Source: an uncultured Candidatus Saccharibacteria bacterium (GTDB lineage Bacteria > Patescibacteriota > Doudnabacteria > UBA920). Taken from it: DNA of 64,000 nt. The stretch spans positions 7,399 to 71,398 of the forward strand of contig CAZACP010000004.1 in NCBI GenBank assembly GCA_964483665.1, read 5' to 3'. Below are positions 1 to 63,138 of this stretch, piece by piece (the stretch's first letter is position 1; each line of letters starts with the position of its first letter). The notes under the pieces are model-generated. The model made no database searches. It was not told the DNA's origin and saw nothing but the letters and a program-made list of their open reading frames with translations. Both the position numbers and the translations under genes were made by a program.

Positions 1-974
1 CCGCTCGCGTAGGCTTTAAAGTGTTTGCGCATTATGAAAAAAGATTTTTGGCCGCCCAGCTTTTCCTGAAACAATTTAGCATGCTCAAGAGCAACCGTTA
101 GTCGTTCCTTTACTGATGGTTGATAGTTGTCTTCGCGGAACATCCAGGGAAAGCCAAAAGCGCCTCTTGCTATCATAACTCCGTCGCAGCCTGTTTCTGC
201 CATTCGCGACAAGCCTTCCGTGCGAGACTTAACATCGCCATTGCCAATAATTAAAGTTTTTGATTGTAAAGTATTTCTAACATTAACAGCTTTTTTTACC
301 TCGACCCAACTAGCAGGCACTTTGCTTTTTTCTTGCTTGGTTCTTGCGTGCAAAGTTATAGCCGCCAAATTATGTTTGAGCAAATGTCCTATCCAGATTT
401 CGGTTTCAGGTTTAGAATATCCGGTTCTTGTTTTTACAGAGACCGGCAAACTACCAGCTCCTTTTATGGTTGCTTCGATGATCTCTGATGCCAAAACTGG
501 ATTGCGAATTAAAGCCGCGCACGCTCCTATGCCAATTTCCTTGTCCTGCGGGCAGCCCATATTTATATCTATGCCGTCAAAACCTAAATTCACCATTAAC
601 TTACTCGCTTCATAAAACTTTTCCGGGTCAGTCCCCCATATTTGCGCAACTATTGGCCTTTGATTTTCCGTGTATTCCAAATCTATTTTAAGCCGCTCAA
701 AACCAGTAGGATGCAGTATGCCATCCACATTTATAAACTCAGTAAACATAACGAACGCATTGCCTTTTTTTGTCTCCTCCTCCCCTGGCGAGGGGAGGAT
801 GCCCGATAGGGCAGGAGAGGTTGCTGTGGTCGTGTTATCGTTATTGTTATGAGTAATAGTTTTTACTCCCCCGCTATACTTAGCAAACATTTCCCTAAAC
901 ACCACGTCTGTAACTTCTTCCATAGGTGCTAGACAAAAAATGGGTCTATTAAGTTGTTGCCAAAAGTTAGACAT
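1..974 (-). CDS. dus: tRNA-dihydrouridine synthase (partial; 3' end beyond window start)
   Basis: The minus-strand frame is open from the window edge to an ATG at 972-974. The N-terminus MSNFWQQLNRPIFCLAPMEEVTDVVFREMF matches the LAPMxxVTDxxFR motif of Dus enzymes. It is absent from the ORF track because it has no in-window stop. It contains a roughly 35-aa low-complexity in-frame insert. Confidence 0.8.
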   Translation of the reverse strand, partial: MSNFWQQLNRPIFCLAPMEEVTDVVFREMFAKYSGGVKTITHNNNDNTTTATSPALSGILPSPGEEETKKGNAFVMFTEFINVDGILHPTGFERLKIDLEYTENQRPIVAQIWGTDPEKFYEASKLMVNLGFDGIDINMGCPQDKEIGIGACAALIRNPVLASEIIEATIKGAGSLPVSVKTRTGYSKPETEIWIGHLLKHNLAAITLHARTKQEKSKVPASWVEVKKAVNVRNTLQSKTLIIGNGDVKSRTEGLSRMAETGCDGVMIARGAFGFPWMFREDNYQPSVKERLTVALEHAKLFQEKLGGQKSFFIMRKHFKAYAS

Positions 975-1004
975 AGATATAATAATACAATAAAAACCGC
1001 CCTT

Positions 1005-1045
1005 GTTCCAGCCCGCAGGCCGGAATCAAGGGCATAGTCTACACG
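1005..1045. repeat. Terminator-like hairpin element (AAAAACCGCCC...TCAAGGGC); related copy at 1505-1550
   Basis: Inverted repeat gcccttg...caagggc with a nested GC palindrome. It lies downstream of minus ORF 1057..1443. Confidence 0.45.
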
Positions 1046-1056
1046 TCAAGAATCCT

Positions 1057-1443
1057 TTAGTCGTCTTCGGATTCGGGTATTAACTCAAATGTCGTATACG
1101 CGCCCTGGCCGCGAATTGCGGGTCGGTTGATCATTAGATACTTTTGTTCTTTGAACCCGTACCTAACTACCAGCACCACTCTTGTAAACCGAAGCGCTCC
1201 TATGGGTGGCTTCTCCGCGTCAACCTCTATTCCTATTGGGTAGGCGTTGACGAGATCGTTTGCTATGGCATACCCACACCAGCTCGTAAGAGCAAGGTTA
1301 TACTGGTTCATCAGGTTTGAAATTCGTGAAATCGCTCCAAACAAATCACTAGTCACCCACATAGTAAAAGCGGCCAAGCCGATACCCAAGACAGTGAACA
1401 AAACCGCGAGCATAAAGGTCGAAACAGACATCATGGAATCCAT
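1057..1443 (-). CDS. Hypothetical small membrane protein (GC-rich orphan ORF)
   Basis: 128-aa ORF with an N-terminal TM helix. The local GC is clearly higher than in the flanks. I recognise no homology. Confidence 0.4.
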   Translation of the reverse strand: MDSMMSVSTFMLAVLFTVLGIGLAAFTMWVTSDLFGAISRISNLMNQYNLALTSWCGYAIANDLVNAYPIGIEVDAEKPPIGALRFTRVVLVVRYGFKEQKYLMINRPAIRGQGAYTTFELIPESEDD

Positions 1444-1504
1444 ATTGCTCCCTCTTGTATCTTTTTTCCCGACTACTCATTTAAGCAGAGAGAGAGAGAG
1501 ATTT

Positions 1505-1550
1505 GTCAATCCAAAAAACCGCCCCTCCGCCAGTTGGCGGATCAAGGGAC
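1505..1550. terminator. Bidirectional rho-independent terminator-like hairpin containing CCGCCAGTTGGCGG palindrome
   Basis: The sequence is aaaaaaccgcccctccgccagttggcggatcaagggacggttttt: a stem with an A-run before it and a T-run after it. It is downstream of the rplJ-rplL unit on the minus strand. Confidence 0.5.
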
Positions 1551-1726
1551 GGTTTTTATGTTCGGATCATTCGGATGCGTTCGCAAGTTCGGATCGCAAA
1601 ATTATTTAGTAGATCCTTCGGCTCGTAAACGAGCCTCAGGATGAACCTTAAATAACTGTTACTTGAGGGATCCTTCATCCCAATAAATTGGGACTCAGGA
1701 TCAACTTAAAATAATTAAGTCTAAAA

Positions 1727-6203: not shown

Positions 6204-6241
6204 CTCTCTCTCCAAGACTTGGAGAGAGCCGGAGAGAGATT
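6204..6241. repeat. Family A palindromic element (CTCTCTCCAAGACTTGGAGAGAG core)
   Basis: It shares its core with the copies at 24627, 45092, 45512 and 63043 and with the intragenic copies. Confidence 0.7.
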
Positions 6242-8025: not shown

Positions 8026-8083
8026 CCGAGATTATCCACCCATGGTGGAGAATTTTTCGGGGCCACGGTATAATATAACTATG

Positions 8084-8341
8084 CATTATGTATATTTATT
8101 GGAATCCCAACAAGATAAATCATGGTATATAGGCCAAACGGATGACTTAAAAGCAAGAGTAGCCAGGCACAATGCGGGTAATGGAGCCAGAACCACCAGC
8201 CTTAAAACAAATTGGGAACTTATATACTATGAAGCCTATAAGACTAAGGCAGACGCCTTGGGTAGAGAGAAATTTTTGAAAAGTGGATCTGGCTACAAGT
8301 ATTTAAAAAAACAGTTAAAAAATTATTTAGAAATCAAATAA
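8084..8341 (+). CDS. GIY-YIG nuclease family protein (UPF0213/YhbQ-like, about 85 aa)
   Basis: MHYVYLLESQQDKSWYIGQTDDLKARVARHNAG...WELIYYEAYKTKADALGREKFLKSGSG. A TATAAT box is at 8069-8074. The start is moved to 8084 from the ORF-track start of 8042. Confidence 0.8.
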   Translation, partial: HYVYLLESQQDKSWYIGQTDDLKARVARHNAGNGARTTSLKTNWELIYYEAYKTKADALGREKFLKSGSGYKYLKKQLKNYLEIK

Positions 8342-17078: not shown

Positions 17079-17175
17079 TTTTAATTTTTGCTTGTCCGTC
17101 TAAATGTCCCGCCCAGGCGGGACTTTTGACGAGCTTTTGTTTTTTAGTTAATTGTTAATCGTCAATTGTTAATTG

Positions 17176-18153
17176 TTACAGCTTCACTATTGCCCTTAAT
17201 TTAGCGGGCTTTGAGCGAGGATTATTTTTTAATTCGTTTTCAGAAGCAGTTACTATTTTTTTGGTTAATATTTTTCCTTGAGGATTTTTGCCACACACAC
17301 ATTGAGGGAAATCTATTGGGCATACGCAGCCTTTACTTAAGCTATTAAAGTATTGTTTTACTATTCTGTCTTCAAGCGAATGGAAGCTTACTATTACTAG
17401 CCTGCCGCCCGGGTTTAAAAGGTCAAAACTTTTTGGCAAAAACTCTTCTAAGGCTTCCAGCTCATGGTTAACCGCTATTCTTAAGGCTTGAAATATTCTT
17501 CTGGCTGAATCATCGGCGCGATGTTTTACAGGCTTAGGAAGTGAATCATGGATTATTTGATAGAGTTCTGTTGTATAGCGGATTTGGCTCTTAGATCTTG
17601 ATTCTTGGATCTTCCTTGCTATCTGGCGGCTAAACTTTTCCTCACCGTAATCGCTAAATATTTTACTAAGCTCCTGTTCGCTTCTGTTATTTAGTAAAAA
17701 ACTTGCGTCTTCGGGTTTAGTTTGATCAAACCGCATGTCTAGCGGCTCTTTTTTCTGAAAGCTAAATCCCCGCCCAGACTGGTCAAGTTCATATGACGAA
17801 AGTCCCAAATCTGCAACAATGCCTGAAATATTATTAAACTCATGTTCTTTTGTTATTTTGTTTATGTTTTGAAAATTGCCGTGCACCGCTATCACTCCCT
17901 CTCCCTCTGGGAGAGGGCCGGGGTGAGGGTGTTTGATATTTGTCCGCCAGTTTGCGGATTGAAATTTGAAATTCTCAATCGCATCCTTGTCCAAATCTAT
18001 AACCAACAACTTGCCGCCCGGAGATATTTTTTGCAAGATCGTCTTACTATACCCTCCTCCGCCTAGCGTCGCGTCGACAAAATTCTCACCGGGCTTAGGG
18101 TTAAGAAAGTAAATAACTTCCTCAAGTAATACTGGAATATGTTCATAATTCAT
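17176..18153 (-). CDS. rsmH: 16S rRNA (cytosine1402-N4)-methyltransferase RsmH/MraW
   Basis: MNYEHIPVLLEEV...DATLGGGGYS and a C-terminal FHSLEDRIVK. It contains an in-frame repeat-derived insert. Confidence 0.85.
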   Translation of the reverse strand: MNYEHIPVLLEEVIYFLNPKPGENFVDATLGGGGYSKTILQKISPGGKLLVIDLDKDAIENFKFQSANWRTNIKHPHPGPLPEGEGVIAVHGNFQNINKITKEHEFNNISGIVADLGLSSYELDQSGRGFSFQKKEPLDMRFDQTKPEDASFLLNNRSEQELSKIFSDYGEEKFSRQIARKIQESRSKSQIRYTTELYQIIHDSLPKPVKHRADDSARRIFQALRIAVNHELEALEEFLPKSFDLLNPGGRLVIVSFHSLEDRIVKQYFNSLSKGCVCPIDFPQCVCGKNPQGKILTKKIVTASENELKNNPRSKPAKLRAIVKL

Positions 18154-24035: not shown

Positions 24036-24314
24036 TTAAAACCGAACAGCCTTTAGCTCCAATATTAATGCATTGTCAATAATAAAATCCACAATATTTC
24101 CTGTGTCCCCGATTATTACTTCTTTCTTATACTTAATACCATTTTCTGAAAATTTTTTCTCTAGCAACTTACTATATTGTTTCTCCTTAGCATATGGACC
24201 TAATTCTTTATAAACTTCAATCAATAAACCGTTTATTTTATAGCTCAAATCCCCGTACAAAAAATCTACCTTCAGTTTCTTCGTTTCTGTAGTTTTCTGT
24301 AGGTTATTACTCAT
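24036..24314 (-). CDS. GxxExxY family protein (PD-(D/E)XK-like), C-terminally truncated paralogue
   Basis: FLYGDLSYKINGLLIEVYKELGPYAKEKQYSKLLEKKF is about 60% identical to the 39534..39923 protein, but it stops at LKAVRF and lacks the last 35 aa. Confidence 0.65.
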   Translation of the reverse strand: MSNNLQKTTETKKLKVDFLYGDLSYKINGLLIEVYKELGPYAKEKQYSKLLEKKFSENGIKYKKEVIIGDTGNIVDFIIDNALILELKAVRF

Positions 24315-24626: not shown

Positions 24627-24670
24627 TTCCCTCTCCAAGACTTGGAGAGGGTTAGGGAAAGGTTGATGAT
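24627..24670. repeat. Family A element (CCCTCTCCAAGACTTGGAGAGGG TTAGGGAAAGGTTG)
   Basis: Matches the cores at 63043 and 6204. Confidence 0.7.
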
Positions 24671-25534: not shown

Positions 25535-26968
25535 TTACCTTTTAAAACTCTTCCCCGGCCTTATGGAAATATCACCATCGTTATCAACTTCCTTAACTCT
25601 CCCAAAACCTACGCTGTCCCTAAATACTTTCCCTGCCTTTAAAACCGGGGCGTAAGACAAAGTAAATTTGCCGTATTTGGCGTTTACAACATCTATCGCG
25701 CGAGTAAGCGAAGCTTTGGCCGTTTGTTTTTTAAACAAAGACTGCTGAAGAATAAAAGGCTTAAGGCCTGCTACGGTAACGCCTATTAATTTACAATTGG
25801 CGATGATTTTATGTATATCGGTATAATTCTTTATAATATGCCTGGCTTCCCAAAATAAATCCCTTGCGTCAAAAATATCGGTAGACAATTTTGCAGAATG
25901 CCCGTAACTGTTATAATCGCCGTCGCGCACATACGCCACCACAATATTGCCCATTAATTTTTTGCGCCTAAGCCTCTCCCCCACCATTTCGCAAAGCTTG
26001 TATAAAACCGGCTCAAAAAATTCCGGCTTTCTGTATTCCTTAGGCAGAGTATACATATGGCCGATTGATTTTATACTTTCATCAAAATTCACTTTTGCTT
26101 TCCAGCTACCGCTTAACTGTCCCATATGGTGAAGGTGATAGCCGTTAATGCCAAACACTCGCACCAGTTTGCTTAAGGGGTAATCGCGCAGCTCTTTTAA
26201 AGTTTTTATGCCAAGTTCGTTTAACCTTTTTTCCTGCCTTTTGGCTATACCCGGTATGTCGGTAAGTTTAAGACGAGTATAAAGATCTTCTTTGGTTAGA
26301 TTTAAAACCCCATTTGATATTTGAAATTTGATATTTGAAATTAGCACTATTCCATCCGGCTTTTTTAAATCACTCGCAATTTTTGCTAGGAGTTTGTTCT
26401 CCGCAATACCTATGCTGCAAGTTAAATAATCCCCCACTTCTTTTTTCATTCGTTTTTTTATTTCCACAGCTACCCTAACCGCTTCTTGCCAAGGATTGGC
26501 CAATAAATAATCTTTAATTTCTGCCATATAAAAATATGGGTGTTCTATATTTTGAAATTTGGATTTTAAAATTTGTCCGCCAGCTGGCGGATTATTTAAA
26601 AATTTAAAATTTAAAATTGGAAATTTAACATTACAGCTTGCTGTAATGTCCACATACGCTTCATCTATGCTGGCCGGCTCAACAAAATTGCTGTAGTCCC
26701 TTAAAACTTTTAAAAACCGGCGATGATACTCCCTGTAAGCATCGGCCCTTGTATGCACCAAAATAATTTTAGGATACAGCTTTTTAGCTTCCCAGACCGG
26801 CGTGCCGGTCTTTATGCCCCAGCGCTTGGCTTCTATGCTGGCGGCAATAATAATGCCGCCCAAATGTTCGCACACGCCTAAAACCTTGCCGCGGTACTCT
26901 TTATTGTCTTGCTGCTCCACCGAGGCAAAATAGCTGTTCATATCTAAATGCAAAATTACATTTTGCAT
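25535..26968 (-). CDS. dinB: DNA polymerase IV (Y-family)
   Basis: MQNVILHLDMNSYFASVE...SIDEAYVDIT...CSIGIAENKLLAKIAS. It carries two in-frame repeat-derived inserts. Confidence 0.85.
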   Translation of the reverse strand: MQNVILHLDMNSYFASVEQQDNKEYRGKVLGVCEHLGGIIIAASIEAKRWGIKTGTPVWEAKKLYPKIILVHTRADAYREYHRRFLKVLRDYSNFVEPASIDEAYVDITASCNVKFPILNFKFLNNPPAGGQILKSKFQNIEHPYFYMAEIKDYLLANPWQEAVRVAVEIKKRMKKEVGDYLTCSIGIAENKLLAKIASDLKKPDGIVLISNIKFQISNGVLNLTKEDLYTRLKLTDIPGIAKRQEKRLNELGIKTLKELRDYPLSKLVRVFGINGYHLHHMGQLSGSWKAKVNFDESIKSIGHMYTLPKEYRKPEFFEPVLYKLCEMVGERLRRKKLMGNIVVAYVRDGDYNSYGHSAKLSTDIFDARDLFWEARHIIKNYTDIHKIIANCKLIGVTVAGLKPFILQQSLFKKQTAKASLTRAIDVVNAKYGKFTLSYAPVLKAGKVFRDSVGFGRVKEVDNDGDISIRPGKSFKR

Positions 26969-27471: not shown

Positions 27472-27720
27472 TTTTTCCTTCTCCTTGTTGTACGATACAA
27501 AACCCGTCCCAAAGAATAACAAAAAAGTTATTCTCAAGGACGGGTTGATGAAGTTTCATCAGTTTGCCGCGGTACCACCTTGCTTTCCTAAAACTTAGGA
27601 CTCTTTTTACCGGATTTTACGGCTCGGGCAACCGTGCGGGATATTCCCCCGCCAGCGTTTTGGTGTGCGAAACCAAATCTTTAACTGCTTTATACTATTA
27701 TTCCGCCAAAGGCGGATCCG
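27472..27720 (-). promoter_or_regulatory. Putative structured 5' leader with terminator/attenuator hairpin (riboswitch-like arrangement, class unknown)
   Basis: On the minus strand the hairpin is cccgtccttgagaataac-tttttt-gttattctttgggacggg followed by ttttg, 25 nt before the RBS. The GC-rich upstream segment has several short hairpins. Confidence 0.3.
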
Positions 27721-27788
27721 CCTTTGGCGGAATTTTAGCTTAGTTTACCACTTACAAAAATTCTGTCAATAACTTTGAATAACCAAAG

Positions 27789-31502: not shown

Positions 31503-31943
31503 CTAATTTAATTTTGTCATTTCAAGGTCTATTGCTTCATTTACTAGTCTGTCGGCGTCTGAATTTTGGACTCTAGGAACGTGGATGAAATTTACGTTTG
31601 CAAAATTTTTACAAAGTTTTAATACCGTTTCAGCCAGGGGTTTAAGCCCCTGGTCTTTTATTTTATAACGGCCCTGCATTTGCCTGACTATTAACTCACT
31701 ATCCATTCGGATTTCTAGGCTCGCCTTTTCGTTTGAAATTTGAAACTTGTCATTTGAAATTTTAATTGCTTCTTCCAACGCCAAAATCAGAGCCCTATAT
31801 TCCGCCTGGTTATTGGTAGTTTCTCCGATATATTTTTTAAATTCAGCGGTTATTAACCCTTGTTCATTTTTAAAAACCACACCGATCCCCGAAGGGCCTG
31901 GATTCCCCCTAGAGCCGCCATCTGTGTTGATTATTAGTTTCAT
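31503..31943 (-). CDS. rnhA: Ribonuclease HI
   Basis: INTDGGSRGNPGPSGIGVV...TNNQAEYRALILALE...HVPRVQNSDADRLVNEA. It contains an in-frame KISNDKFQISNEK insert. Confidence 0.8.
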   Translation of the reverse strand: MKLIINTDGGSRGNPGPSGIGVVFKNEQGLITAEFKKYIGETTNNQAEYRALILALEEAIKISNDKFQISNEKASLEIRMDSELIVRQMQGRYKIKDQGLKPLAETVLKLCKNFANVNFIHVPRVQNSDADRLVNEAIDLEMTKLN

Positions 31944-32018: not shown

Positions 32019-33746
32019 TTAAGATGATAACTGCCTAATATCTATAATTCTTAACTTTAATTGCTTATTCCCGTTCCATTCATCTTGCAATAATTCACAG
32101 GCTAAATCTAACTCTTGGCCTATTTGTAAACTGCTGTCTTTAGGCCCAAAATTAAAAGCGATGCAGGAAATTTGTCTGTTGCCTAAAGAAATTTTCATTT
32201 GCAAATGCTGTGCTTTTTGTCCCACAGCCCGCTTACTTAATATTTTAGCATTTTTCAGCAAAAATTTTGGTTTCGGGTTGCCAACCCCAAAAGGCTCTAA
32301 GGAAGCAATCAAGTTGTAAGTTGTAAGTTGTAAGTCTTCGGAGGAAAGTTCTGCGTCAATATTTAAAACAGGCCCGTCATCTTCTTCCATATTCTTTTCC
32401 GCAAAATCCAAAACGCTTTGGTAAAATATTTCAAAATTTTCCGTTTGCAAGGTAAGCCCCGCCGCCTGCTTATGCCCGCCATAGCGGATTAAATGCTGGC
32501 CGGAATATTTTAAAGCCTCAACTACATTAAATTCCCCCGCGCTTCTGGCCGACCCGGTCGCTTCAAACTCCCCCTTCTCCAGCACAATTGTGGGTTTATA
32601 AAATTCTTCGGCTAATTTGCCCGCAACTAACCCCACAACGCCTTTATGCCAACTTTCCCCCATTAACACCAAAACCTTCCTGTGAAGTATTCCTTGGGCT
32701 TTTTCTCTCGCTTCGCTCATTATCCGCGCTGTTATTTCCTGCCTTCGCAAATTTATTTCTTCAATATTTTGAGCTTGAATTTTTGCCTTTAAGGGATCGT
32801 TTTCTAACAAAAGTTCCAGGGCAACATTAGCGTGTTCAAGCCTTCCAGCCGCGTTTATCCTTGGTGCAATTACAAAACCTAAGGAATAAGTATCCAGCGG
32901 CTGCTTTGCAGGATCCAGCTTTGCTAAATCCATTAAAGCCCTAAGCCCAACCCACTTTGTTTTAGCTAAAACTTTAAGGCCATACTTAACAAAAATTCTA
33001 TTCTCGCCTATAAGCTTATGACAGTCAGCCACTGTGCCTATAGCCACAAGGTCTAATAGCCACTTTTCCCACCCTTGGGATGATTTCGGATTTCGTCCGC
33101 CAGCTGGCGGATCGGATTTCGGATTTTGCAGCAATGCCTGAGCGAGTTTAAAAGCCACGCCGACCCCAACAATTTGGTCATCCGGATAATTATCGTCTTG
33201 ATTTTTAGGGTTTATAAGCGCTAAAGCGTTTGGTAAATTTCCAATAATTTCATGGTGGTCGGTAATAATTAAGTCTATGTTATTTTCCTTGCACCATTCT
33301 GCGGCATCTACAGAATTTGTGCCGCAGTCCACGGTAATTATTACTTTTGAACCATGTTCTTTAATTTTTTTTAAGGCGTCTAAATTTACCCCGTACCCTT
33401 CCAAAAAACGGTCGGGTATATAACTTTCACAGTCCGCGCCCAAATAATTAAAGGCTTGGCGCAAAACCGCATTAGCGGTTATGGCGTCTGCGTCATAGTC
33501 GCCGTAAATAGTAATTTTTTCTTTATTCTCTATTGCCTGCCATATCCTGTTAACGGCTTTTTCCATATCGCGGAATAAAAACGGGCTATTAAGCCCTGTA
33601 GTATAGTCCGCGTTAATAAATTTTTTTATTTCTTCCGGTTCCTTAAGGCCGCGATCAAAAAGCAATTGCCTTAAAAGGACCGGGTAATCTTTATAAACTT
33701 CTTCCAGTTCTGTCGGAATATTGGGTTTTAATTTCCAAATTTTCAT
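32019..33746 (-). CDS. recJ: Single-stranded-DNA-specific exonuclease RecJ
   Basis: DHH motifs (YGDYDADAITANAVL and IITDHHE) and a DHHA1 domain. It has two in-frame repeat inserts. Confidence 0.85.
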   Translation of the reverse strand: MKIWKLKPNIPTELEEVYKDYPVLLRQLLFDRGLKEPEEIKKFINADYTTGLNSPFLFRDMEKAVNRIWQAIENKEKITIYGDYDADAITANAVLRQAFNYLGADCESYIPDRFLEGYGVNLDALKKIKEHGSKVIITVDCGTNSVDAAEWCKENNIDLIITDHHEIIGNLPNALALINPKNQDDNYPDDQIVGVGVAFKLAQALLQNPKSDPPAGGRNPKSSQGWEKWLLDLVAIGTVADCHKLIGENRIFVKYGLKVLAKTKWVGLRALMDLAKLDPAKQPLDTYSLGFVIAPRINAAGRLEHANVALELLLENDPLKAKIQAQNIEEINLRRQEITARIMSEAREKAQGILHRKVLVLMGESWHKGVVGLVAGKLAEEFYKPTIVLEKGEFEATGSARSAGEFNVVEALKYSGQHLIRYGGHKQAAGLTLQTENFEIFYQSVLDFAEKNMEEDDGPVLNIDAELSSEDLQLTTYNLIASLEPFGVGNPKPKFLLKNAKILSKRAVGQKAQHLQMKISLGNRQISCIAFNFGPKDSSLQIGQELDLACELLQDEWNGNKQLKLRIIDIRQLSS

Positions 33747-33749
33747 TGA

Positions 33750-33830
33750 GTAGTTGGTAGTTGGTAGTTGGTAGTTGGTAGCCCAAATTGCTCCGGCTAC
33801 TTACTACTTTACTACCTACTACTTACTAAA
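33750..33830. repeat. Family D element: (TAGTTGG)4 array - spacer - (CTACTTA)n array
   Basis: Read directly from the sequence. The second copy is at 62515-62590. Confidence 0.65.
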
Positions 33831-39533: not shown

Positions 39534-39923
39534 TTAAATATTATTTGGATTTAAAACTCTCTTTATTTGTAATCTGGGGACGCGGAAGTTTACTAATAGA
39601 CCTAATTTTAAATTCGTTTGAATTAAATAACGCTTTAACTGATCATATGTTTCTTGTATTAAAAAAGGTACTGTTTTTAATTCTAGAATAATTCTATTTT
39701 CAATAATGAAGTCAGCAATATTACCAGAATCCCCTATCCTAACCTCTCTCTTATAATTCACGGCTCTGTTTTTAAATATAATTTCTATTTTATCGGCTAC
39801 TTGTTTTTCTCTAGCATATGGCCCCAGTTCTTTATGAACCTCAATTAAAATGCCATTGATCTTGTAAGTAAGATCGCCGTACAAAAATTCTGACATCTTT
39901 TTAAACTTAGTTTCTGTAGGCAT
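39534..39923 (-). CDS. GxxExxY family protein (PD-(D/E)XK-like), full length
   Basis: FLYGDLTYKINGILIEVHKELGPYAREKQ....ELKTVPFLIQETYDQLKRYL. Confidence 0.7.
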   Translation of the reverse strand: MPTETKFKKMSEFLYGDLTYKINGILIEVHKELGPYAREKQVADKIEIIFKNRAVNYKREVRIGDSGNIADFIIENRIILELKTVPFLIQETYDQLKRYLIQTNLKLGLLVNFRVPRLQIKRVLNPNNI

Positions 39924-40976: not shown

Positions 40977-41094
40977 TTGATTAATTTAAATTCGAAGCAT
41001 CAAATACGAAATTCGAAACAAATTCAAATAAAAAATTTTTAAATATTAAACTGTAACTATTTTTCGGATTTCGATATTCGGATTTCGAATTTTG

Positions 41095-45091: not shown

Positions 45092-45131
45092 TTCCCTCCC
45101 CTCCTAAGGGGAGGGATTAAGGGAGAGGTTG
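45092..45131. repeat. Family A element (CCCTCCCCTCCTAAGGGGAGGG ATTAAGGGAGAGGTTG)
   Basis: Read directly from the sequence. Confidence 0.65.
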
Positions 45132-45135
45132 TATT

Positions 45136-45501
45136 TTAAAACCCGCATGCTTCTTTTATTTTACTTAAAACTCCTTGAATATTTGTGTCTATTTCATTAT
45201 TCCAAAATCTTAAAACTTTGTAGCCTATTTTTTCTGCGTACTGTTGTTTTCGCTTATCGTAAGCCGATATTTCTTGCTCGCTGTGCTGTCCTCCGTCTGC
45301 CTCCACTAAGAGCATTTTCTCTTTACAACTAAAATCATAAATATACTGTCCAATTTGCATTTGACGCTTAAATTTTAACCCATAAAACCTACCAGCTCTT
45401 AAATAATACCAAAGCTTGCTTTCCCAAGGAGTCTGATTTTTTCTTAGGCTTCGGGAATTGGTTAAATATGGCTCTGGTATAACTCTTTTGGCAGTATCCA
45501 T
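45136..45501 (-). CDS. DUF559 endonuclease-domain protein (Vsr-like fold)
   Basis: YGLKFKRQMQIGQYIYDFSCKEKMLLVEADGGQHS...YKVLRFWNNEI. Confidence 0.75.
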   Translation of the reverse strand: MDTAKRVIPEPYLTNSRSLRKNQTPWESKLWYYLRAGRFYGLKFKRQMQIGQYIYDFSCKEKMLLVEADGGQHSEQEISAYDKRKQQYAEKIGYKVLRFWNNEIDTNIQGVLSKIKEACGF

Positions 45502-45511
45502 ATGTTTTTAG

Positions 45512-45620
45512 TCTCTCCCCTTTTAAGGGGAGATGTCACGAGTGTATCCGAGTGACAAAGAGGTTGTATACTACATCTACTGCAACCTCTCCCTAACCCT
45601 CTCCTTAAAAGGAGAGGGTA
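45512..45620. repeat. Family A composite element (4 hairpins: CTCCCC/GGGGAG, GTCAC/GTGAC, GAGGTTG/CAACCTC, CCCTCTCC/GGAGAGGG)
   Basis: Same stem set as 63043-63138 in inverted orientation, but with different loops. Confidence 0.7.
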
Positions 45621-49589: not shown

Positions 49590-49973
49590 CTAATTCTTTT
49601 TCTTATCTAAATAATTTTGTAAAAGTATTTGCGCGGCAAGGCTGTCTAAATCTTTTTTACTTCCGCTTATATTTTTTGCCATAACAGATGTTAATCGCTC
49701 GTCTATAGTTTCTACCGGCAAACCTGTCTTTTTTGTAATTTGCAATTTGAAACCGGAAATTTCTTCCGTCTTTTTTGTCATTTCCCCGCTCATATTTAGC
49801 GGCCAGCCCAAAACAATTTGGGTAATTTGATGTTCCTCGATAACTCCCGTAATTTTCTCCCAAAATTCCTTTGGCGACAAAATAGTTAACTCCCGCGCAA
49901 AAGTTTTTGTCTCATCAGAAATTGCCAAACCAATCCTCTTTGAGCCATAGTCGATCCCTAGGATTTTAGACAT
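49590..49973 (-). CDS. ruvX: Holliday-junction resolvase-like protein RuvX/YqgF
   Basis: ILGIDYGSKRIGLAISD... Confidence 0.85.
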   Translation of the reverse strand: MSKILGIDYGSKRIGLAISDETKTFARELTILSPKEFWEKITGVIEEHQITQIVLGWPLNMSGEMTKKTEEISGFKLQITKKTGLPVETIDERLTSVMAKNISGSKKDLDSLAAQILLQNYLDKKKN

Positions 49974-50025
49974 TAGAAATTAGAATTAGAAATTATTTAG
50001 TATAATTAGGTTAATTAGAATAATT

Positions 50026-56964: not shown

Positions 56965-57059
56965 AAAATTCCCTTTCTTAAATATAAGCTAAATATTTCG
57001 CTTATATTATACCATTTATTAATATATTCTACAAGCCTAATTAGGTTTTATTTCAAATG

Positions 57060-57110
57060 TAGCGCAGGCCCGTGGCCTGCTGTTTGCAGGGCAAGGCCCT
57101 GCGCTACGTT
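57060..57110. other. Perfect 10-bp-stem palindrome GTAGCGCAGG...CCTGCGCTAC with nested hairpin
   Basis: Read directly from the sequence. It is immediately 3' of the ATPase gene and has no flanking U-run. Confidence 0.4.
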
Positions 57111-57112
57111 AA

Positions 57113-59665
57113 TTAGAGCCCTCTTTCTACATCGGGCAAACCTTCGCTCATACTTTCCGCCACATTGCCGGCTTCCAACATTTCCGCCTCAACCTCGGAT
57201 CTGGGTCTGCCAAATTTAAGCCTCGAAAGTTGGCGGATGCTTTGCGCCAATTCCTCTGTGCCTGATTTTTGCGGCGGCATAGTTGCCATATTAAAGGGCT
57301 TGCTGGCCGTGCCGTTTACCATAAGCCTGACATAGGCGTTGTAACGGTCTATATTCACCAAATCAAACTGGTTAAAGGTAGGCGCAAACTCTTTACCCAA
57401 AACTTCGCTGTCTTCGGCGCCGGTTCTAAACACCACCATTGTCCCAACATTGCCGAACACTGCGTTTCGCAAGTCTTTACTGGCCGCGCCTTGAGCTCCG
57501 GCCTGAGTTTCCAGTTGCCCCAAATATTGGTGTGCGATGATGAGATTTAACTTATACTTTCTGGCCTCAGAAAGTATGGAAGCAAAGGCATCGGTTATAA
57601 AATTCTGGAACTCGTCTACATATAAATAAAAATCTTTTCTTTTTTCCTCCGGCACATCTGCGCGGGAAAGCGCGGCCATTTGGATTTTAGAAACTAGTAT
57701 AAGCCCGAGCAGCTTGGCGTTTATTTCACCCGTGCGGCCCTTAGACAAATTCACCAGCAAAACTTTGCCCTCGTCCATAACTTTCCTAAAATTAAAGCCG
57801 CTCTTGCTTTGGCCGACTATGTTGCGCATCATGGTATTTTCCACAAAACGCCCGACTTTGGAAATTAAATAGCCAAGCATTTCGCTTCTATGGAAGTCGG
57901 AGGTTTTTGCCATTTCCTTTTCCCAAAAAAGTTTTACCACCGGATCTTTTAGCTTTTCCACCTTATATTTCTGAAAATCTGTGTCCGTAAATATCCTCGG
58001 GATATCTGTAATAGTGCCGGGATGCTCTTCGTCCGCCATAAGCGTGAGCATTGCGTTGCGCATATTGTGTTCAAACATAGGACCAAGCATAGCAGGATCA
58101 GTAACTAATTTATAAAATATAGATATCATTTCCTGCACCGCAAAATCTTTTTGCTCTTCGCTGTCCACTTCCAGCATATTTAAGCCGAGTGGCCTGTCCA
58201 TATCAAACGGCTCAAAGACTATAATGTCCTCCGCCCGTTCTTTAGGCACATTTTGTAAAATATCCTGTATTAAATCCCCGTGAGGGTCAACCACGCACAA
58301 ACCTTCCCCATTTTTTATATCCTGAATGGCCATATTGGCAAGCAATACAGACTTGCCGCTGCCCGTGCGACCTAGCACGTAGGTGTGGCGCCTACGGTCT
58401 TCCCTGCCCATAAAAATTGGGGTCTCCACGCCTCTATAAATATTTTTACCAATTAACAAACCCTCTTTGTGAATATTTAAAGGCGGCGGGGCTTTTTTAG
58501 AAACCAGCCACTTAATGTTTGGCGTTTCAATATACGGCGTTGGCAAATGCCACAGGCTTGCCAGCTCTTCGGTATTTAAAACGGTTTTTAAGCCATAATC
58601 CCTAAAAACTCTAAAAATATAATCTTTAACTATTTCTTCCTTATTTCTTTTTTTGTGTTTAAAACCGTTAAATGGGGGCATATTATACTGCAAAAATGCG
58701 CCCATTAAATTACGCATATGGCTCTGAGCCTGGCCGGGTGTGGCAGATGAAGTTATAAGTCTGACATTAACTTTATACCCCGGACGGCTGGCTTTTTCTT
58801 CAAGTTTCTTTACTATTTCCTGCTGCATTGGGGTAAGCTGAATTGGCGAATAGTATCCGCTTAAATCTTTATGCTTATGCGACTGATTTTGTCCCCCGCC
58901 TTTTACCCCCGCGGCCATTCCGCCAAAGCCTTTAAGCAACCCCATAACCGCTCTGTAAAAATGCCCTTTTTCAACCAACTCCGGATTTTTCCCTTGCTGG
59001 ACTTCTAAAGCCATGTGCCTGGGTTTTCCCTGCCAGGCTGTGCCGGCCGGACTTAAAATAAACTGTACCGCTGCGCCCTCGTTTTCCAAAAGTTTACTCA
59101 TTGCATTGGTTATGGCATTAAGCGGGTCTGACTCCATAGTTTTGTAAGTACGGAAAGGATAAAAATATTTTTTGTTTAAAACTAATTCTTCCGCTTCCAC
59201 CTGCCCGCCTTTTTGGAATGGATTATAACCTTTTACCGCTTCTACAAAAGCATGCGGGTATTGTGCCTGCAATTGCTTTTCTACCAATTCCTGCAAATGC
59301 TTGGGGCAATTTATATAAAAGCTTATTTTTTTGTCTGTGCAAGCTATTTCAAAACTATAGTAGTCCTTACCCAAAAGCCAGCCTTTGCTGTGTCCGCTTT
59401 CAGAAAGCGTGGTAAACAGCTGTTCAGCTATGCCAATTAAATGTTTTTTTTCTTCTTCTGTCTTGGGCTTTTGCTGGTCTTTGTCTTCAGAGGATTCTTT
59501 AGGCATCTGAATTTCCAAAAACACCCACTCCATAGTCCTGGGAATAACATGGCCTAAGTGATAACGGTGGCGCTTGTAAAAATAAAAAAACACGGCCCCA
59601 AAGACAAACAAAAGGCCGACAAATACCAAAAGCACTATATTAAAAGTATTTATTTCAAAAGGCAT
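57113..59665 (-). CDS. TraD/TraG/VirD4-like (DUF87-type) membrane-anchored P-loop ATPase
   Basis: 850 aa with an N-terminal TM helix. Walker A GRTGSGKS is followed by CVVDPHGD. Walker B-like LYVDEFQNF is present. The long N-terminal domain is atypical. Confidence 0.5.
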   Translation of the reverse strand: MPFEINTFNIVLLVFVGLLFVFGAVFFYFYKRHRYHLGHVIPRTMEWVFLEIQMPKESSEDKDQQKPKTEEEKKHLIGIAEQLFTTLSESGHSKGWLLGKDYYSFEIACTDKKISFYINCPKHLQELVEKQLQAQYPHAFVEAVKGYNPFQKGGQVEAEELVLNKKYFYPFRTYKTMESDPLNAITNAMSKLLENEGAAVQFILSPAGTAWQGKPRHMALEVQQGKNPELVEKGHFYRAVMGLLKGFGGMAAGVKGGGQNQSHKHKDLSGYYSPIQLTPMQQEIVKKLEEKASRPGYKVNVRLITSSATPGQAQSHMRNLMGAFLQYNMPPFNGFKHKKRNKEEIVKDYIFRVFRDYGLKTVLNTEELASLWHLPTPYIETPNIKWLVSKKAPPPLNIHKEGLLIGKNIYRGVETPIFMGREDRRRHTYVLGRTGSGKSVLLANMAIQDIKNGEGLCVVDPHGDLIQDILQNVPKERAEDIIVFEPFDMDRPLGLNMLEVDSEEQKDFAVQEMISIFYKLVTDPAMLGPMFEHNMRNAMLTLMADEEHPGTITDIPRIFTDTDFQKYKVEKLKDPVVKLFWEKEMAKTSDFHRSEMLGYLISKVGRFVENTMMRNIVGQSKSGFNFRKVMDEGKVLLVNLSKGRTGEINAKLLGLILVSKIQMAALSRADVPEEKRKDFYLYVDEFQNFITDAFASILSEARKYKLNLIIAHQYLGQLETQAGAQGAASKDLRNAVFGNVGTMVVFRTGAEDSEVLGKEFAPTFNQFDLVNIDRYNAYVRLMVNGTASKPFNMATMPPQKSGTEELAQSIRQLSRLKFGRPRSEVEAEMLEAGNVAESMSEGLPDVERGL

Positions 59666-62510: not shown

Positions 62511-62514
62511 TATG

Positions 62515-62590
62515 TAGTTGGTAGTTGGTAGTTGATAGTTGGTAGCCGAACATTGCCTGACTACTTACTACTTACTACTTCACTAATCGC
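62515..62590. repeat. Family D element (TAGTTGG array - spacer - CTACTTA array)
   Basis: It overlaps the last 8 codons of rplO. Confidence 0.65.
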
Positions 62591-63042: not shown

Positions 63043-63138
63043 TCCCTCTCCAAGACTTGGAGAGGGTTAGGGAGAGGTTGAAAATTATTAACCTCTCTGT
63101 CACCTTTCGGGTGACATCTCCCCAAGCTTTCGGGAGAA
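63043..63138. repeat. Family A composite element in the rpsE-rplO spacer (where rpmD/L30 would normally be)
   Basis: ccctctccaagacttggagaggg ttag ggagaggttg..aacctctct gtcacctttcgggtgac atctcccc.. Confidence 0.7.

What the first reader, a model, noticed from the sequence alone, without database searches (positions are those of the whole stretch)
1005..1550. Two related terminator-like hairpins with an AAAAACCGCCC...TCAAGGG frame and a swappable inner palindrome
The hairpins at 1005-1045 and 1505-1550 share their outer arms (AAAAACCGCCC / ATCAAGGGNCGG) but carry different GC-rich inner palindromes (CCAGCCCGCAGGCCGG versus CCGCCAGTTGGCGG). The inner palindrome of the second one is the same CCGCCAGCTGGCGG unit that is inserted in frame into dinB, recJ and rsmH. 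This links the intergenic terminator-like elements to the intragenic inserts.
Basis: seen in the sequence. Interest (0 to 1): 0.5.

Follow-up and report, generated by a model that had tools for sequence, protein, structure and literature searches.

The report
Modular terminator hairpins, tiny dispersed palindrome
The two hairpins are sister copies of one transcription terminator in a Doudnabacteria-like (CPR) genome. The tip of one is a 16-base palindrome that also sits in frame inside housekeeping genes, and it recurs in hairpin tips and genes of many other low-GC bacteria, so it behaves like an ultra-small dispersed repeat.

Summary
Hairpin 1 spans 992-1033 and hairpin 2 spans 1513-1557. ATCAAGGGNCGG occurs only in hairpin 2.

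Both hairpins fold best on the minus (sense) strand, at about -31 kcal/mol, and are followed by a U-run. They lie after ORF128 and after rplL.

Related species have a single rplL-dus terminator at this place. It is an empty frame in one species (GAAA loop) and carries TCCGCCAACTGGCGGA in another. ORF128 is an orphan gene, so the window's two hairpins are paralogues created when it was gained.

TCCGCCAGYTGGCGGA occurs four times in the window against 0.1 expected. Three copies are in frame in rsmH, dinB and recJ, at hypervariable sites flanked by heptanucleotide arrays.

The same 18-mer occurs in many Patescibacteria, Bacteroidota and other low-GC genomes. There it sits at the tips of unrelated hairpin frames, inside heptamer arrays, or in frame as "PPAGG" in SecA, LeuRS, GluRS, SMC and others.

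Best reading: these are intrinsic terminators built from nestable REP/SDR-like hairpin modules. How the modules spread is unknown. No transposase is encoded in the window. I rate it a new variant of a known kind.

The parts
992..1033 (-). Hairpin 1, the intrinsic-terminator-like hairpin after ORF128, about 20 nt upstream of the dus start codon. Outer stem is CCCTTG (1000-1005) with CAAGGG (1027-1032). On the sense strand the U-run corresponds to plus-strand AAAAA at 992-996.
   Evidence: Sequence. Sense-strand fold -31.3 kcal/mol, z -5.7, against -23.2 for the antisense strand. Aligns with the rplL-dus terminators of L137 and L138.
1006..1025 (-). Inner palindrome of hairpin 1: TTCCAGCC-CGCA-GGCCGGAA. 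It is unique to this species. It may be a diverged copy of the TCCGCC/GGCGGA module with one extra base in each arm.
   Evidence: Single match in the window with up to 3 mismatches. Found only in same-species loci.
1513..1557 (-). Hairpin 2, the terminator-like hairpin that closes the rplL downstream region. Outer frame is AAAAAACCG.CCCC / GGG.CGGTTTTT, with an A-run and a T-run, so it has the shape of a bidirectional terminator.
   Evidence: Sequence. Sense-strand fold -31.5 kcal/mol, z -6.0. Invariant in 10 same-species contigs. Orthologue with the same tip in L138.
1526..1541 (.). Copy 1 of the 16-nt palindromic module, TCCGCCAGTTGGCGGA, at the tip of hairpin 2.
   Evidence: Identical to the tip of the L138 terminator.
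1057..1443 (-). ORF128, an orphan small protein with a hydrophobic N-terminal stretch (read from its translation; no topology prediction was run), inserted between rplL and dus. Its gain goes with the duplication of the terminator into hairpins 2 and 1.
   Evidence: The only homologue is a same-species protein at 98% identity. It is absent from the rplL-dus spacer of L137, L138 and L140.
1612..1646 (-). A second hairpin family, with frame GTTCATCCTGAG-X-GAAGGATC on the sense strand. This is an extra copy with inner palindrome GGCTCGTTTACGAGCC.
   Evidence: Absent from L137 at this position.
1669..1705 (-). The same frame (GTTGATCCTGAG-X-GAAGGATC) just after the rplL stop codon, with inner palindrome TCCCAATTTATTGGGA. 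The orthologous site keeps the frame but carries a different inner palindrome in L139 and L140.
1561..1594 (-). Degenerate ATCCGAA heptamer motifs (3 copies) around a 10-nt palindrome, TGCGTTCGCA. ATCCGAA is the same heptamer that flanks the palindrome in recJ.
17943..17958 (-). Copy 2, degenerate (TCCGCCAGTTTGCGGA), in frame in rsmH as SANWRT. It is flanked by CAAATTTCAA / CAAATATCAA on the sense strand.
   Evidence: Lies in a 14-residue surplus relative to RsmH structure 1m6y.
26576..26591 (-). Copy 3, exact, in frame in dinB as PPAGG. It is flanked by AT-rich heptamer arrays (26549-26575 and 26594-26632).
   Evidence: Lies in about 48 extra residues relative to structure 7yll. Shared with the 95%-identical relative L133 and absent from L135.
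33096..33111 (-). Copy 4, exact, in frame in recJ as PPAGG. It replaces 4 nt of an otherwise perfect (AAATCCG)n array (NPKSEIR), which leaves 10-nt direct repeats CGAAATCCGA on both sides.
   Evidence: The site is hypervariable in 120 homologues. There is a 17-residue gap in RecJ structure 8y30.
27700..27733 (.). A perfect 34-nt palindrome built from two TCCGCC-AAA/TTT-GGCGGA units (ATTCCGCCAAAGGCGGATCCGCCTTTGGCGGAAT). It is intergenic and uses the same stem family.
   Evidence: Folds at -31.4 kcal/mol, z -8.5. Conserved in L133.

Best explanation
Hairpins 1 and 2 are Rho-independent (intrinsic) terminators read on the minus strand. Hairpin 2 ends the rplL transcript and hairpin 1 ends ORF128.

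They are paralogues of one ancestral rplL-dus terminator. That terminator had the form A-run, CCG(Y)CC(C)TT stem, loop, GGGCGG stem, U-run. It was duplicated when the orphan gene ORF128 was gained.

The apex of this terminator is a slot. In one relative it is a bare GAAA loop. In another relative, and in hairpin 2, it holds the 16-nt palindrome TCCGCCA(A/G)CTGGCGGA. That adds about 12 kcal/mol of stem.

The palindrome is a member of a very small dispersed repeat family. It is REP-like, and from memory it also resembles the cyanobacterial small dispersed repeats. Its copies sit in three kinds of place:
- the tips of unrelated hairpin frames
- A-rich heptanucleotide arrays
- tolerant surface loops of proteins, in frame, usually read as PPAGG

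Copies that strengthen a terminator stem, or that are harmless in a protein loop, are the ones that survive.

Shown:
- the hairpins, their strand preference and their position
- the paralogy and the empty and filled orthologous frames
- over-representation of the palindrome in the window
- in-frame extra residues in the host proteins
- recurrence of the palindrome across phyla in all three contexts

Inferred:
- that transcription actually stops at the hairpins
- that copies arise by insertion (mobility) rather than by recombination between alleles
- the machinery that spreads them. It is unknown; my preferred guess is insertion into single-stranded loops of extruded hairpins or slipped repeats by a factor acting in trans, encoded outside this window.
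For: Position and fold:
- Both hairpins lie downstream of minus-strand genes and are followed by U5-6.
- The sense strand is more stable than the antisense strand, -31.3 and -31.5 against -23.2 and -24.7 kcal/mol.

Paralogy and slot:
- L137 has the empty frame, a 13-bp stem with a GAAA loop and U6, at -18.5 kcal/mol.
- L138 has the frame plus TCCGCCAACTGGCGGA, at -30.8 kcal/mol.
- Both are the only terminator between rplL and dus, and GGGCGGTTTTT is invariant in the 4-way alignment.
- ORF128 has no homologue outside this species.
- A second frame, YATCCTGAG-X-GAAGGATC, at the orthologous site after rplL carries three different inner palindromes in four species.

Dispersed module:
- 4 copies in the window against 0.1 expected.
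- TCCGCC/GGCGGA is the commonest GC-rich hairpin stem in 131 kb of unselected Doudnabacteria DNA, 13 occurrences against at most 4 for any unrelated stem; the next-ranked stems are sub-strings of this palindrome.
Of 125 hits that could be scored, 88 lie in loci below 50% GC, in many Patescibacteria classes, Bacteroidota (including cultured isolates), Cloacimonadota and Elusimicrobia.
- 31% of those hits gain at least 10 kcal/mol from an outer stem, against 10% when flanks are paired with the wrong partner (Mann-Whitney p = 0.0016).
- 36 of the 88 lie in ORFs of at least 150 aa, mostly in the PPAGG frame. Pfam confirms LeuRS, GluRS, SecA, RecJ (at another site), glutamate dehydrogenase, methionine aminopeptidase, SMC and others.

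Turnover:
- The recJ site is hypervariable in 120 homologues.
- A relative with 95% identical RecJ has a (GAGAAAA)n array and no palindrome. A relative at 62% has the palindrome at the same site inside a different array.

Precedent: REPs lie mostly downstream of genes, and intragenic REPs are often in replication and repair genes, including error-prone polymerases (PMC3733652).
Against: - No transcript 3' ends are available. Hairpin 1 has 2-3 unpaired bases (CGG) between its GC stem and the U-run.
- No empty-versus-filled pair was seen in near-identical backgrounds. All 10 same-species contigs are identical at hairpin 2, and L137 and L138 are different species. Insertion is therefore inferred, not observed.
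- No target-site duplication is present, and no transposase, RAYT or integrase was found by Pfam in the window's larger ORFs (about 68 of 80 at least 70 aa long were scanned).
- The replaced patch in recJ is about 60 nt and extends beyond the array. That also fits short-patch recombination with a divergent allele.
- In two Bacteroidota the same 16-mer is an ordinary helix of RNase P RNA. AAACCGCC...GGCGGTTT is a common terminator stem here. Some recurrence could therefore be convergence on a favoured stem.
- The genome scan was truncated, so genome-wide enrichment across phyla is not quantified.
Confidence: 0.7

Rival explanations
1. Convergence without mobility. TCCGCC-loop-GGCGGA is simply the stem that selection and mutation favour for stable hairpins in these low-GC genomes. 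The same sequence arises repeatedly, and the similarity between terminator tips and gene inserts is not due to copying.
For: - The 16-mer forms native helices of RNase P RNA in two Bacteroidota. The Rfam consensus for one of these helices already reads CCGCC...GGCGG.
- Other terminators in this clade use AAACCGCC...GGCGGTTT stems.
- Loop variants exist on the same stem: AAA, TTT and T.
Against: - Identity extends through the loop (CAGCTG) and often to flanking bases (RA...GA), in unrelated contexts.
- There is no reason to select a hairpin inside the coding loops of SecA, LeuRS, GluRS, SMC and the like, yet the identical 18-mer is there in frame.
- 4 copies in 64 kb against 0.1 expected.
- In three independent heptamer arrays the palindrome replaces exactly 4 nt at the same phase.
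Confidence: 0.15
2. Recombination cassette shuffling. The modules are not inserted one at a time. Short patches holding arrays and hairpins are exchanged between alleles or between dispersed hairpins, by homologous or microhomology-mediated gene conversion, possibly after DNA uptake. That would give the appearance of swappable tips.
For: - In recJ the 95%-identical relative differs over a patch of about 60 nt that is wider than the array. The window's version resembles the version in distant lineages (NPKSE type).
- The palindrome sits at the same recJ site in a relative whose RecJ is 62% identical.
- There is no target-site duplication and no transposase.
Against: - Allelic exchange cannot place the same 16-mer into dozens of unrelated genes and hairpin frames across phyla.
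- L137 and L138 differ by a clean loop-for-palindrome replacement inside an otherwise conserved hairpin.
Confidence: 0.12
3. A functional recognition site. The palindrome would be a DNA uptake sequence or a binding site for a dimeric regulator or nucleoid protein. It would be kept in terminators and tolerated in genes, as with Neisseria DUS or Haemophilus USS.
For: - It is a GC-rich palindromic core with AT-rich periodic flanks.
- It occurs as a terminator stem and in variable parts of DNA-repair genes (dinB, recJ).
- From my own knowledge, not tested here: CPR bacteria are thought to depend on DNA uptake.
Against: - Density is about 1 TCCGCC/GGCGGA-stem hairpin (all loop variants) per 10 kb in Doudnabacteria DNA. 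DUS and USS occur about once per kb (my own knowledge).
- The identical sequence in many phyla is the opposite of a species-specific uptake tag.
- Copies tolerate mismatches that break the palindrome, as in rsmH.
Confidence: 0.03

Closest known systems
Intrinsic (Rho-independent) transcription terminators
   Same: A GC-rich stem-loop followed by a U-run, directly downstream of genes. Hairpin 2 also has the upstream A-run typical of bidirectional terminators. The structure is stronger on the sense strand.
   Different: - The stems are long, composite and bulged, at about -31 kcal/mol.
- The apical third is a separable module that is absent from an orthologue which is still a perfect terminator (L137).
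- Termination itself has not been measured.
REP elements (GTAG- and CGTC-tagged repetitive extragenic palindromes; Di Nocera et al. 2013, PMC3733652) and REPINs/RAYTs (PMC3116915)
   Same: - Short GC-rich palindromes, mostly downstream of genes.
- Thought to act as RNA hairpins or terminators.
- Some copies are intragenic, notably in replication and repair genes including error-prone polymerases.
- Regarded as non-autonomous mobile DNA.
   Different: - Only 16-18 nt, against 20-40 for REPs.
- No GTAG or CGTC tag: 5 of 89 and 8 of 89 copies.
- No RAYT in the window.
- Three of the four window copies are intragenic.
- Copies are nested at the tips of other hairpin families.
- The identical sequence is shared across phyla.
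Rickettsia palindromic elements (RPEs)
   Same: Palindromic repeats inserted in frame into unrelated housekeeping genes without destroying them, adding a peptide to the protein (PMC10969869).
   Different: - RPEs are about 150 bp and confined to Rickettsia.
- Here the unit is 16 nt, adding 4-5 residues (PPAGG or SASWR).
- It also serves as a terminator tip.
- It occurs in many phyla.
Cyanobacterial small dispersed repeats (SDR; Elhai et al. 2008, Genome Res 18:1484) and STRR heptanucleotide repeats. The paper was not available to me, so this comparison is from memory apart from what PMC5861425 says.
   Same: - Very small dispersed repeats with no known transposase.
- Reported as nested in hairpin contexts, in other repeats and in tandem heptamer arrays.
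- Heptamer repeats are the over-represented repeat period here as well.
   Different: - SDRs are 21-27 nt and were reported only in Nostocaceae.
- The sequences are unrelated.
- The element here is a perfect palindrome.
- It is widespread in Patescibacteria and Bacteroidota and is frequently in frame in genes.
Pneumococcal SPRITE, BOX and RUP clusters
   Same: Small repeats that resemble Rho-independent terminators, bunch together in intergenic regions and insert into one another (PMC10969869).
   Different: These are MITE-sized elements of about 100 bp or more, specific to one species. They are not 16-nt modules and are not found in frame in genes.

Membership tests
Intrinsic terminator | A stable GC-rich stem-loop immediately followed by a U-run on the transcribed strand, downstream of a gene | tested here: met
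   Hairpin 2 has its stem followed directly by U6. Hairpin 1 has its stem, then CGG, then U5. Both lie downstream of minus-strand ORFs.
Intrinsic terminator | Transcripts end in the U-run | not testable with these tools
   No RNA data are available for this metagenomic organism.
REP (GTAG/CGTC-tagged) | A GTAG or CGTC tetranucleotide at one end of the palindrome (PMC3733652) | tested here: not met
   CGTC in 8 of 89 and GTAG/CTAC in 5 of 89 low-GC copies. Of the window copies, only recJ reads CGTC.
REP (GTAG/CGTC-tagged) | An imperfect palindrome of 20-40 bp, predominantly extragenic | tested here: not met
   The unit is a 16-nt perfect palindrome. Three of the 4 window copies and 36 of 88 external low-GC copies lie inside long ORFs.
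REP (GTAG/CGTC-tagged) | An associated RAYT (IS200/IS605-like Y1 transposase) in the genome | tested here: inconclusive
   No Y1_Tnp or other transposase was found among the window's ORFs. Only 64 kb of the genome was available.
MITE | Terminal inverted repeats flanking a non-coding core of about 50-300 bp, with target-site duplications | tested here: not met
   The element is 16 nt, with nothing between its two arms. The 10-nt direct repeats beside it are explained by heptamer periodicity, because the palindrome replaces 4 nt of a perfect array. There is no duplication at the terminator slot.
Rickettsia palindromic element | A palindromic element of about 100-150 bp that encodes a conserved peptide and is inserted in frame | tested here: not met
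   In-frame insertion is met. Size and sequence are not: 16 nt, 5 residues.
Cyanobacterial SDR | Dispersed repeats of 21-27 nt, nested in hairpins and heptamer arrays, in Nostocaceae | tested here: inconclusive
   The nested and heptamer contexts are met. Size and taxon are not. The defining paper could not be read.
DNA uptake sequence | A strand-independent motif at about 1 copy per kb, specific to one lineage | tested here: not met
   About 1 copy per 10 kb. The same sequence occurs in many phyla.
Integron attC | A cassette array with conserved R/L core sites (RYYYAAC / GTTRRRY) flanking a variable centre, plus an IntI integrase | tested here: not met
   One cassette-like gene (ORF128) lies between two related hairpins. 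There are no attC core sites in the sequence, no array, and no integrase in the window.

The most novel reading that the evidence does not exclude
TCCGCCAGCTGGCGGA is an ultra-small mobile element shared across phyla. It is a bare 16-nt palindrome with no coding capacity, no terminal repeats and no target duplication. It invades single-stranded loops, such as terminator and RNA-helix tips and slipped heptamer arrays, and also the coding loops of essential proteins, in Patescibacteria, Bacteroidota and other low-GC lineages. It would be spread by a machinery not yet identified, or by DNA uptake followed by microhomology-templated repair. It would be one member of a combinatorial, nestable hairpin module system that continually remodels terminators and protein surface loops in these genomes.
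Probability: 0.35. Interest if true: 0.8.

Novelty: new variant of a known kind. Interest (0 to 1): 0.6.

Why it matters
Small palindromic repeats that double as terminators and occasionally sit inside genes are already known. REPs and RPEs are the examples.

Three things are unusual here:
- The unit is extremely small.
- It is clearly modular. Orthologous sites show the frame empty, filled, or filled with something else.
- The identical 16-18-mer recurs in many phyla, often in frame in essential genes such as SecA, aminoacyl-tRNA synthetases, SMC and RecJ.

If the module is truly mobile, it would be among the smallest mobile DNAs described. It would also point to an insertion mechanism that is independent of a transposase, or to one whose enzyme is not yet recognised, in the little-studied CPR bacteria.

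There are practical consequences too:
- These modules explain many "PPAGG", "NPKSEIR" and "PLPEGEG"-type low-complexity insertions and spurious small ORFs in CPR annotations.
- They mark hypervariable, insertion-tolerant loops in conserved proteins.
- They offer ready-made natural experiments on terminator strength (-18.5 against -31 kcal/mol at one orthologous site).

Tried and rejected
- **Target-site duplication.** The 10-nt direct repeats flanking the palindrome looked like duplications (recJ CGAAATCCGA x2; L136 CAAGAACCAA x2; L030 CAAAAATCAA x2). They are fully explained if the palindrome replaces 4 nt of a perfect heptamer array, since 10 + 4 = 14 = 2 x 7. No duplication exists at the terminator slot.
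- **Crude flank scores.** Hamming-type direct-repeat and inverted-repeat scores on 10-nt flanks, and unconstrained RNAfold pair counts, barely separated real flanks from mismatched-partner controls. Only a constrained fold showed the nested-hairpin excess.
- **Rfam.** The only window match at the gathering threshold was one tRNA.
- **Homologues of ORF128.** None outside the species, so its flanks could not be compared directly. I used rplL homologues instead.
- **Metagenome scan.** A search for more orthologous terminators upstream of dus returned a single contig, from the assembly project (JADMIO) that L138 and the L7/L12 hit P0127 came from.
- **Viral contigs.** 26 hits, 20 of them in contigs of at least 50% GC, reading IRQLAD/E in coding sequence. 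That is chance-like, and there is no sign of a phage vector.
- **Literature.** The exact 14-mer appears in no held paper. A 'nanoMITE' search was useless. No paper held both the CPR/Patescibacteria term and the palindromic-repeat terms in the two searches that combined them; two other searches did not require a CPR term. The Elhai 2008 SDR paper is not held.
- **Transposases.** A Pfam scan of the window's larger ORFs (about 68 of 80 at least 70 aa long) found no transposase, RAYT, integrase or standalone reverse transcriptase. It found only small nucleases: PDDEXK_3 twice, DUF559 and GIY-YIG.
- **Assembly artefact.** Rejected, because identical sequence appears in independent ENA, JGI and Logan assemblies.
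Full report
**Context**

The window is about 40% GC, and most of its genes are on the minus strand. RecJ and L7/L12 homologues are named Candidatus Doudnabacteria or Patescibacteria by their sources. The organism is therefore a CPR bacterium known only from metagenomes. Identical sequence is present in independent ENA, JGI and Logan assemblies.

On the minus strand the local gene order is rplJ, rplL (1727-2137), ORF128 (1057-1443) and dus (2-974, running off the window).

**Checking the observation**

Hairpin 1 is at 992-1033 and hairpin 2 at 1513-1557.

AAAAACCGCCC occurs exactly twice in the window, at these two sites. ATCAAGGGNCGG occurs only in hairpin 2.

Both hairpins fold far better than shuffled sequence, and better on the minus strand than on the plus strand:
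- Minus strand: -31.3 and -31.5 kcal/mol.
- Plus strand: -23.2 and -24.7 kcal/mol.

The difference comes from G.U pairs. That is what one expects of an RNA structure made from the sense strand.

Each hairpin is followed on that strand by a U-run. Hairpin 2 also has an upstream A-run. The simple terminator scan missed both because their stems are bulged.

The palindrome CCGCCAGCTGGCGG, allowing up to 2 mismatches, occurs four times against 0.1 expected. The three intragenic copies are in frame in an RsmH/MraW methyltransferase, a Y-family polymerase and RecJ. Each lies within residues that are extra relative to solved homologues.

**What the two hairpins are**

ORF128 has no homologue outside this species. 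I therefore fetched the rplL neighbourhood of related species through L7/L12 homologues. In three relatives rplL is followed directly by dus. Two of these carry a single terminator about 20 nt upstream of the dus start codon:
- L137: AAAAACCGTCCTT-GAAA-AAGGGCGGTTTTTT. This is a perfect 13-bp stem with a GNRA loop, at -18.5 kcal/mol.
- L138: AAAACCGCCCTTGA-TCCGCCAACTGGCGGA-AGGGCGGTTTTTT, at -30.8 kcal/mol.

The window's hairpin 2 has the same frame and exactly the same 16-mer tip. Hairpin 1 keeps CCCTTGA...CAAGGGCGGTTTTT and the ancestral position next to dus (alignment).

The two hairpins are therefore paralogues of one terminator, duplicated when ORF128 was gained. The tip is a slot that can be empty or filled.

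The tip of hairpin 1 (TTCCGGCC-TGCG-GGCTGGAA on the sense strand) is unique to this species. It can be read in two ways: as a different module, or as the same module with one extra base in each arm, forming a G.U pair. I cannot decide between these.

A second frame, YATCCTGAG-X-GAAGGATC, lies just after the rplL stop codon (window 1669-1705, with an extra copy at 1612-1646). It shows the same behaviour. The frame is conserved at the orthologous place in L137, L139 and L140, but X is a different palindrome in L139 and in L140. L138 has a heptamer array there instead.

The whole 250-nt spacer folds into a chain of such hairpins (-88 kcal/mol, z -6.5).

**The intragenic copies**

In recJ the sense strand reads (AAATCCG)2-A-TCCGCCAGCTGGCGGA-CG(AAATCCG)AAATC. 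If the palindrome is removed and 4 nt (AATC) are restored, the result is a perfect heptamer array encoding NPKSEIRNPK. Many RecJ homologues have exactly that peptide at this site.

The site is a hot spot. Across 120 homologues it holds different heptamer-array peptides, at least three other hairpin-derived peptide families, and inserts of up to about 45 residues.

Two relatives are informative:
- One with 95% identical RecJ has a (GAGAAAA)n array and no palindrome.
- One at 62% has the palindrome at the same place inside a (CAAGAAC)n array.

dinB and dus show similar hot spots.

Period-7 tandem repeats are the over-represented class in the window. This fits earlier reports that heptamer repeats are over-represented in bacteria (PMC4692102).

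The intragenic copies form only a 6-bp hairpin, at -8 to -13 kcal/mol, with no U-run. They are not terminators.

**Distribution beyond this genome**

I scanned one genome per species for ATCCGCCARCTGGCGGAS.

Hits in GC-rich genomes are coding sequence reading IRQLAE/D, for example in ABC-type ATPases. These look like chance.

However, 88 of the 125 scorable hits are in loci below 50% GC. They come from:
- many Patescibacteria classes
- Bacteroidota, including cultured Mucilaginibacter, Niastella and Chryseosolibacter
- Cloacimonadota, Elusimicrobia and others

In viral contigs the proportions are reversed, with 20 of 26 hits in GC-rich coding sequence. The low-GC excess is therefore a property of cellular genomes.

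The low-GC copies fall into the same three contexts seen in the window:
1. **At the tip of longer hairpins with unrelated frames.** Examples are GTCATTGCGA...GCAATC, CATCCTGAGCGA...GAAGGATC and ATCCC-GA...GA-GGGAT. An outer stem worth at least 10 kcal/mol is present in 31% of copies, against 10% in controls with mismatched partner flanks (p = 0.0016).
2. **Inside A-rich heptamer arrays, at a fixed phase**.
3. **In frame in long ORFs.** This applies to 36 of 88 copies, mostly read as PPAGG. Pfam confirms LeuRS, GluRS, SecA, RecJ at another site, glutamate dehydrogenase, methionine aminopeptidase, SMC and others.

In two Bacteroidota the 16-mer is a helix of RNase P RNA. One of them has it in two helices.

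In 131 kb of Doudnabacteria DNA that was not selected for the motif, TCCGCC/GGCGGA is by far the commonest GC-rich hairpin stem.

**Mechanism**

The terminator role is well supported by anatomy but has not been measured.

The modular slot is shown by the comparison of orthologous sites.

That the 16-mer spreads by copying is the most economical reading, because the identical sequence, loop included, appears in dozens of unrelated genes and frames. But no insertion polymorphism was seen within a population. There is no target-site duplication; the apparent 10-nt repeats are an effect of heptamer periodicity. No transposase is encoded in the window.

Short-patch recombination, and convergence on a favoured stem, remain partial alternatives. 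I give them 0.12 and 0.15.

**Comparison with known elements**

The closest described elements are REPs. They are mostly downstream of genes, and their intragenic copies are often in replication and repair genes, including error-prone polymerases (PMC3733652). This element fails the REP definition in three ways: it lacks the GTAG/CGTC tag, it is too small, and most window copies are intragenic.

RPEs share the in-frame habit but are about 150 bp and confined to Rickettsia.

From memory, the cyanobacterial SDR and STRR system shares the very small size, the nesting and the link to heptamer arrays. It was reported only in Nostocaceae.

I found no paper describing this palindrome or such modules in CPR bacteria.

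**Verdict**

It is a new variant of a known kind, namely REP/SDR-like hairpin repeats that serve as terminator parts and as in-frame inserts.

One aspect is open and interesting: the identical 16-nt module is shared across phyla, and how it spreads is unknown.

Noticed in passing
window 1479-1509 (minus strand): The ORF128 promoter-like site is TTGACA, a spacer containing (TC)n, then TTAAAT. The (TC)n tract (1487-1501) differs in length between 10 same-species contigs, giving spacers of 19, 17 and 15 nt. This resembles a phase-variable promoter for the orphan small protein ORF128.
   Followed up: partly
window 776-830, 6206-6240, 17893-17933, 24629-24670, 45093-45133, 45514-45571, 45580-45620 (reversed), 63044-63085: A second dispersed hairpin family has the form CCCTCTCC-loop-GGAGAGGG followed by TTAGGGAGAGGTTG. 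Two copies are identical (24629 and 63044). Copies lie in frame in dus (SPALSGILPSPGEEE) and rsmH (HPHPGPLPEGEGV). The same kind of peptide (PLPKGEG) appears in the RecJ hot spot of other species.
   Followed up: partly
window 45093-45620: A small DUF559 (Vsr-like endonuclease) gene at 45136-45501 is bracketed by direct copies of the second hairpin family, both ending in AGAGGTTGTAT. This parallels ORF128 sitting between hairpins 2 and 1. Small cassettes seem to sit between duplicated hairpin modules.
   Followed up: no
window 33750-33828 and 62514-62585: Nearly the same structure lies directly upstream of the start codons of recJ and secY. It consists of a (GTAGTTG)4-5 array, a central GGTAGCC...GGCTAC hairpin, and an inverted (CTACTTA)4 array. 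Together these form a long imperfect hairpin in the 5' leader.
   Followed up: no
window 57059-57107: A REPIN-like pair of inverted GTAG-tagged hairpins (GTAGCGCAGGCC-CGT-GGCCTGC ... GCAGGGC-AAG-GCCCTGCGCTAC) lies immediately downstream of the VirD4/TraG-like ATPase gene (57113-59665). It is the only one in the window.
   Followed up: no
window 33081-33126; RecJ residues about 205-228; homologues P0001-P0120: One loop of RecJ is an insertion hot spot across Doudnabacteria. It holds heptamer-array peptides (NPKSEIRNPK, SEKCKVKSEK and others), several hairpin-derived peptides (PPAGG, PLPKGEG, APRLA.ARSGQP, SFRAS..RNPL), and inserts of up to about 45 residues. dinB (two sites) and dus have similar hot spots.
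   Followed up: partly
window-wide (for example 17147-17178, 26312-26342, 31732-31762, 32311-32335, 41062-41092, 49966-49995): Tandem repeats of period 7 are the over-represented class. There are 13 perfect runs of at least 15 nt, against 2 for period 8 and 1 for period 9, and only period 7 has arrays of 3 or more units. Several of them are in frame inside genes.
   Followed up: partly
L060:4274-4680 and L056:2699-3091: In two Bacteroidota the RNase P RNA gene contains UCCGCCAGCUGGCGGA as a helix. In L060 the identical 16-mer forms both P3 and the ACCG...GGUAAGG helix.
   Followed up: partly
window 8042-8341, 24036-24314, 39534-39923, 45136-45501: There are four small stand-alone nuclease-type genes: GIY-YIG, PD-(D/E)XK_3 twice and DUF559. 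They are scattered among housekeeping genes. They are candidates for selfish or homing-type genes, and possibly for making the breaks that seed module turnover. This was not tested.
   Followed up: no
L044:3985-4030: In a Patescibacteria contig the palindrome directly follows what looks like the 5' part of a tRNA gene (GGGGGTATAGCTCAGCCTGGTAG|ATCCGCCAGCTGGCGGAC). An intact tRNA lies about 100 nt downstream.
   Followed up: no
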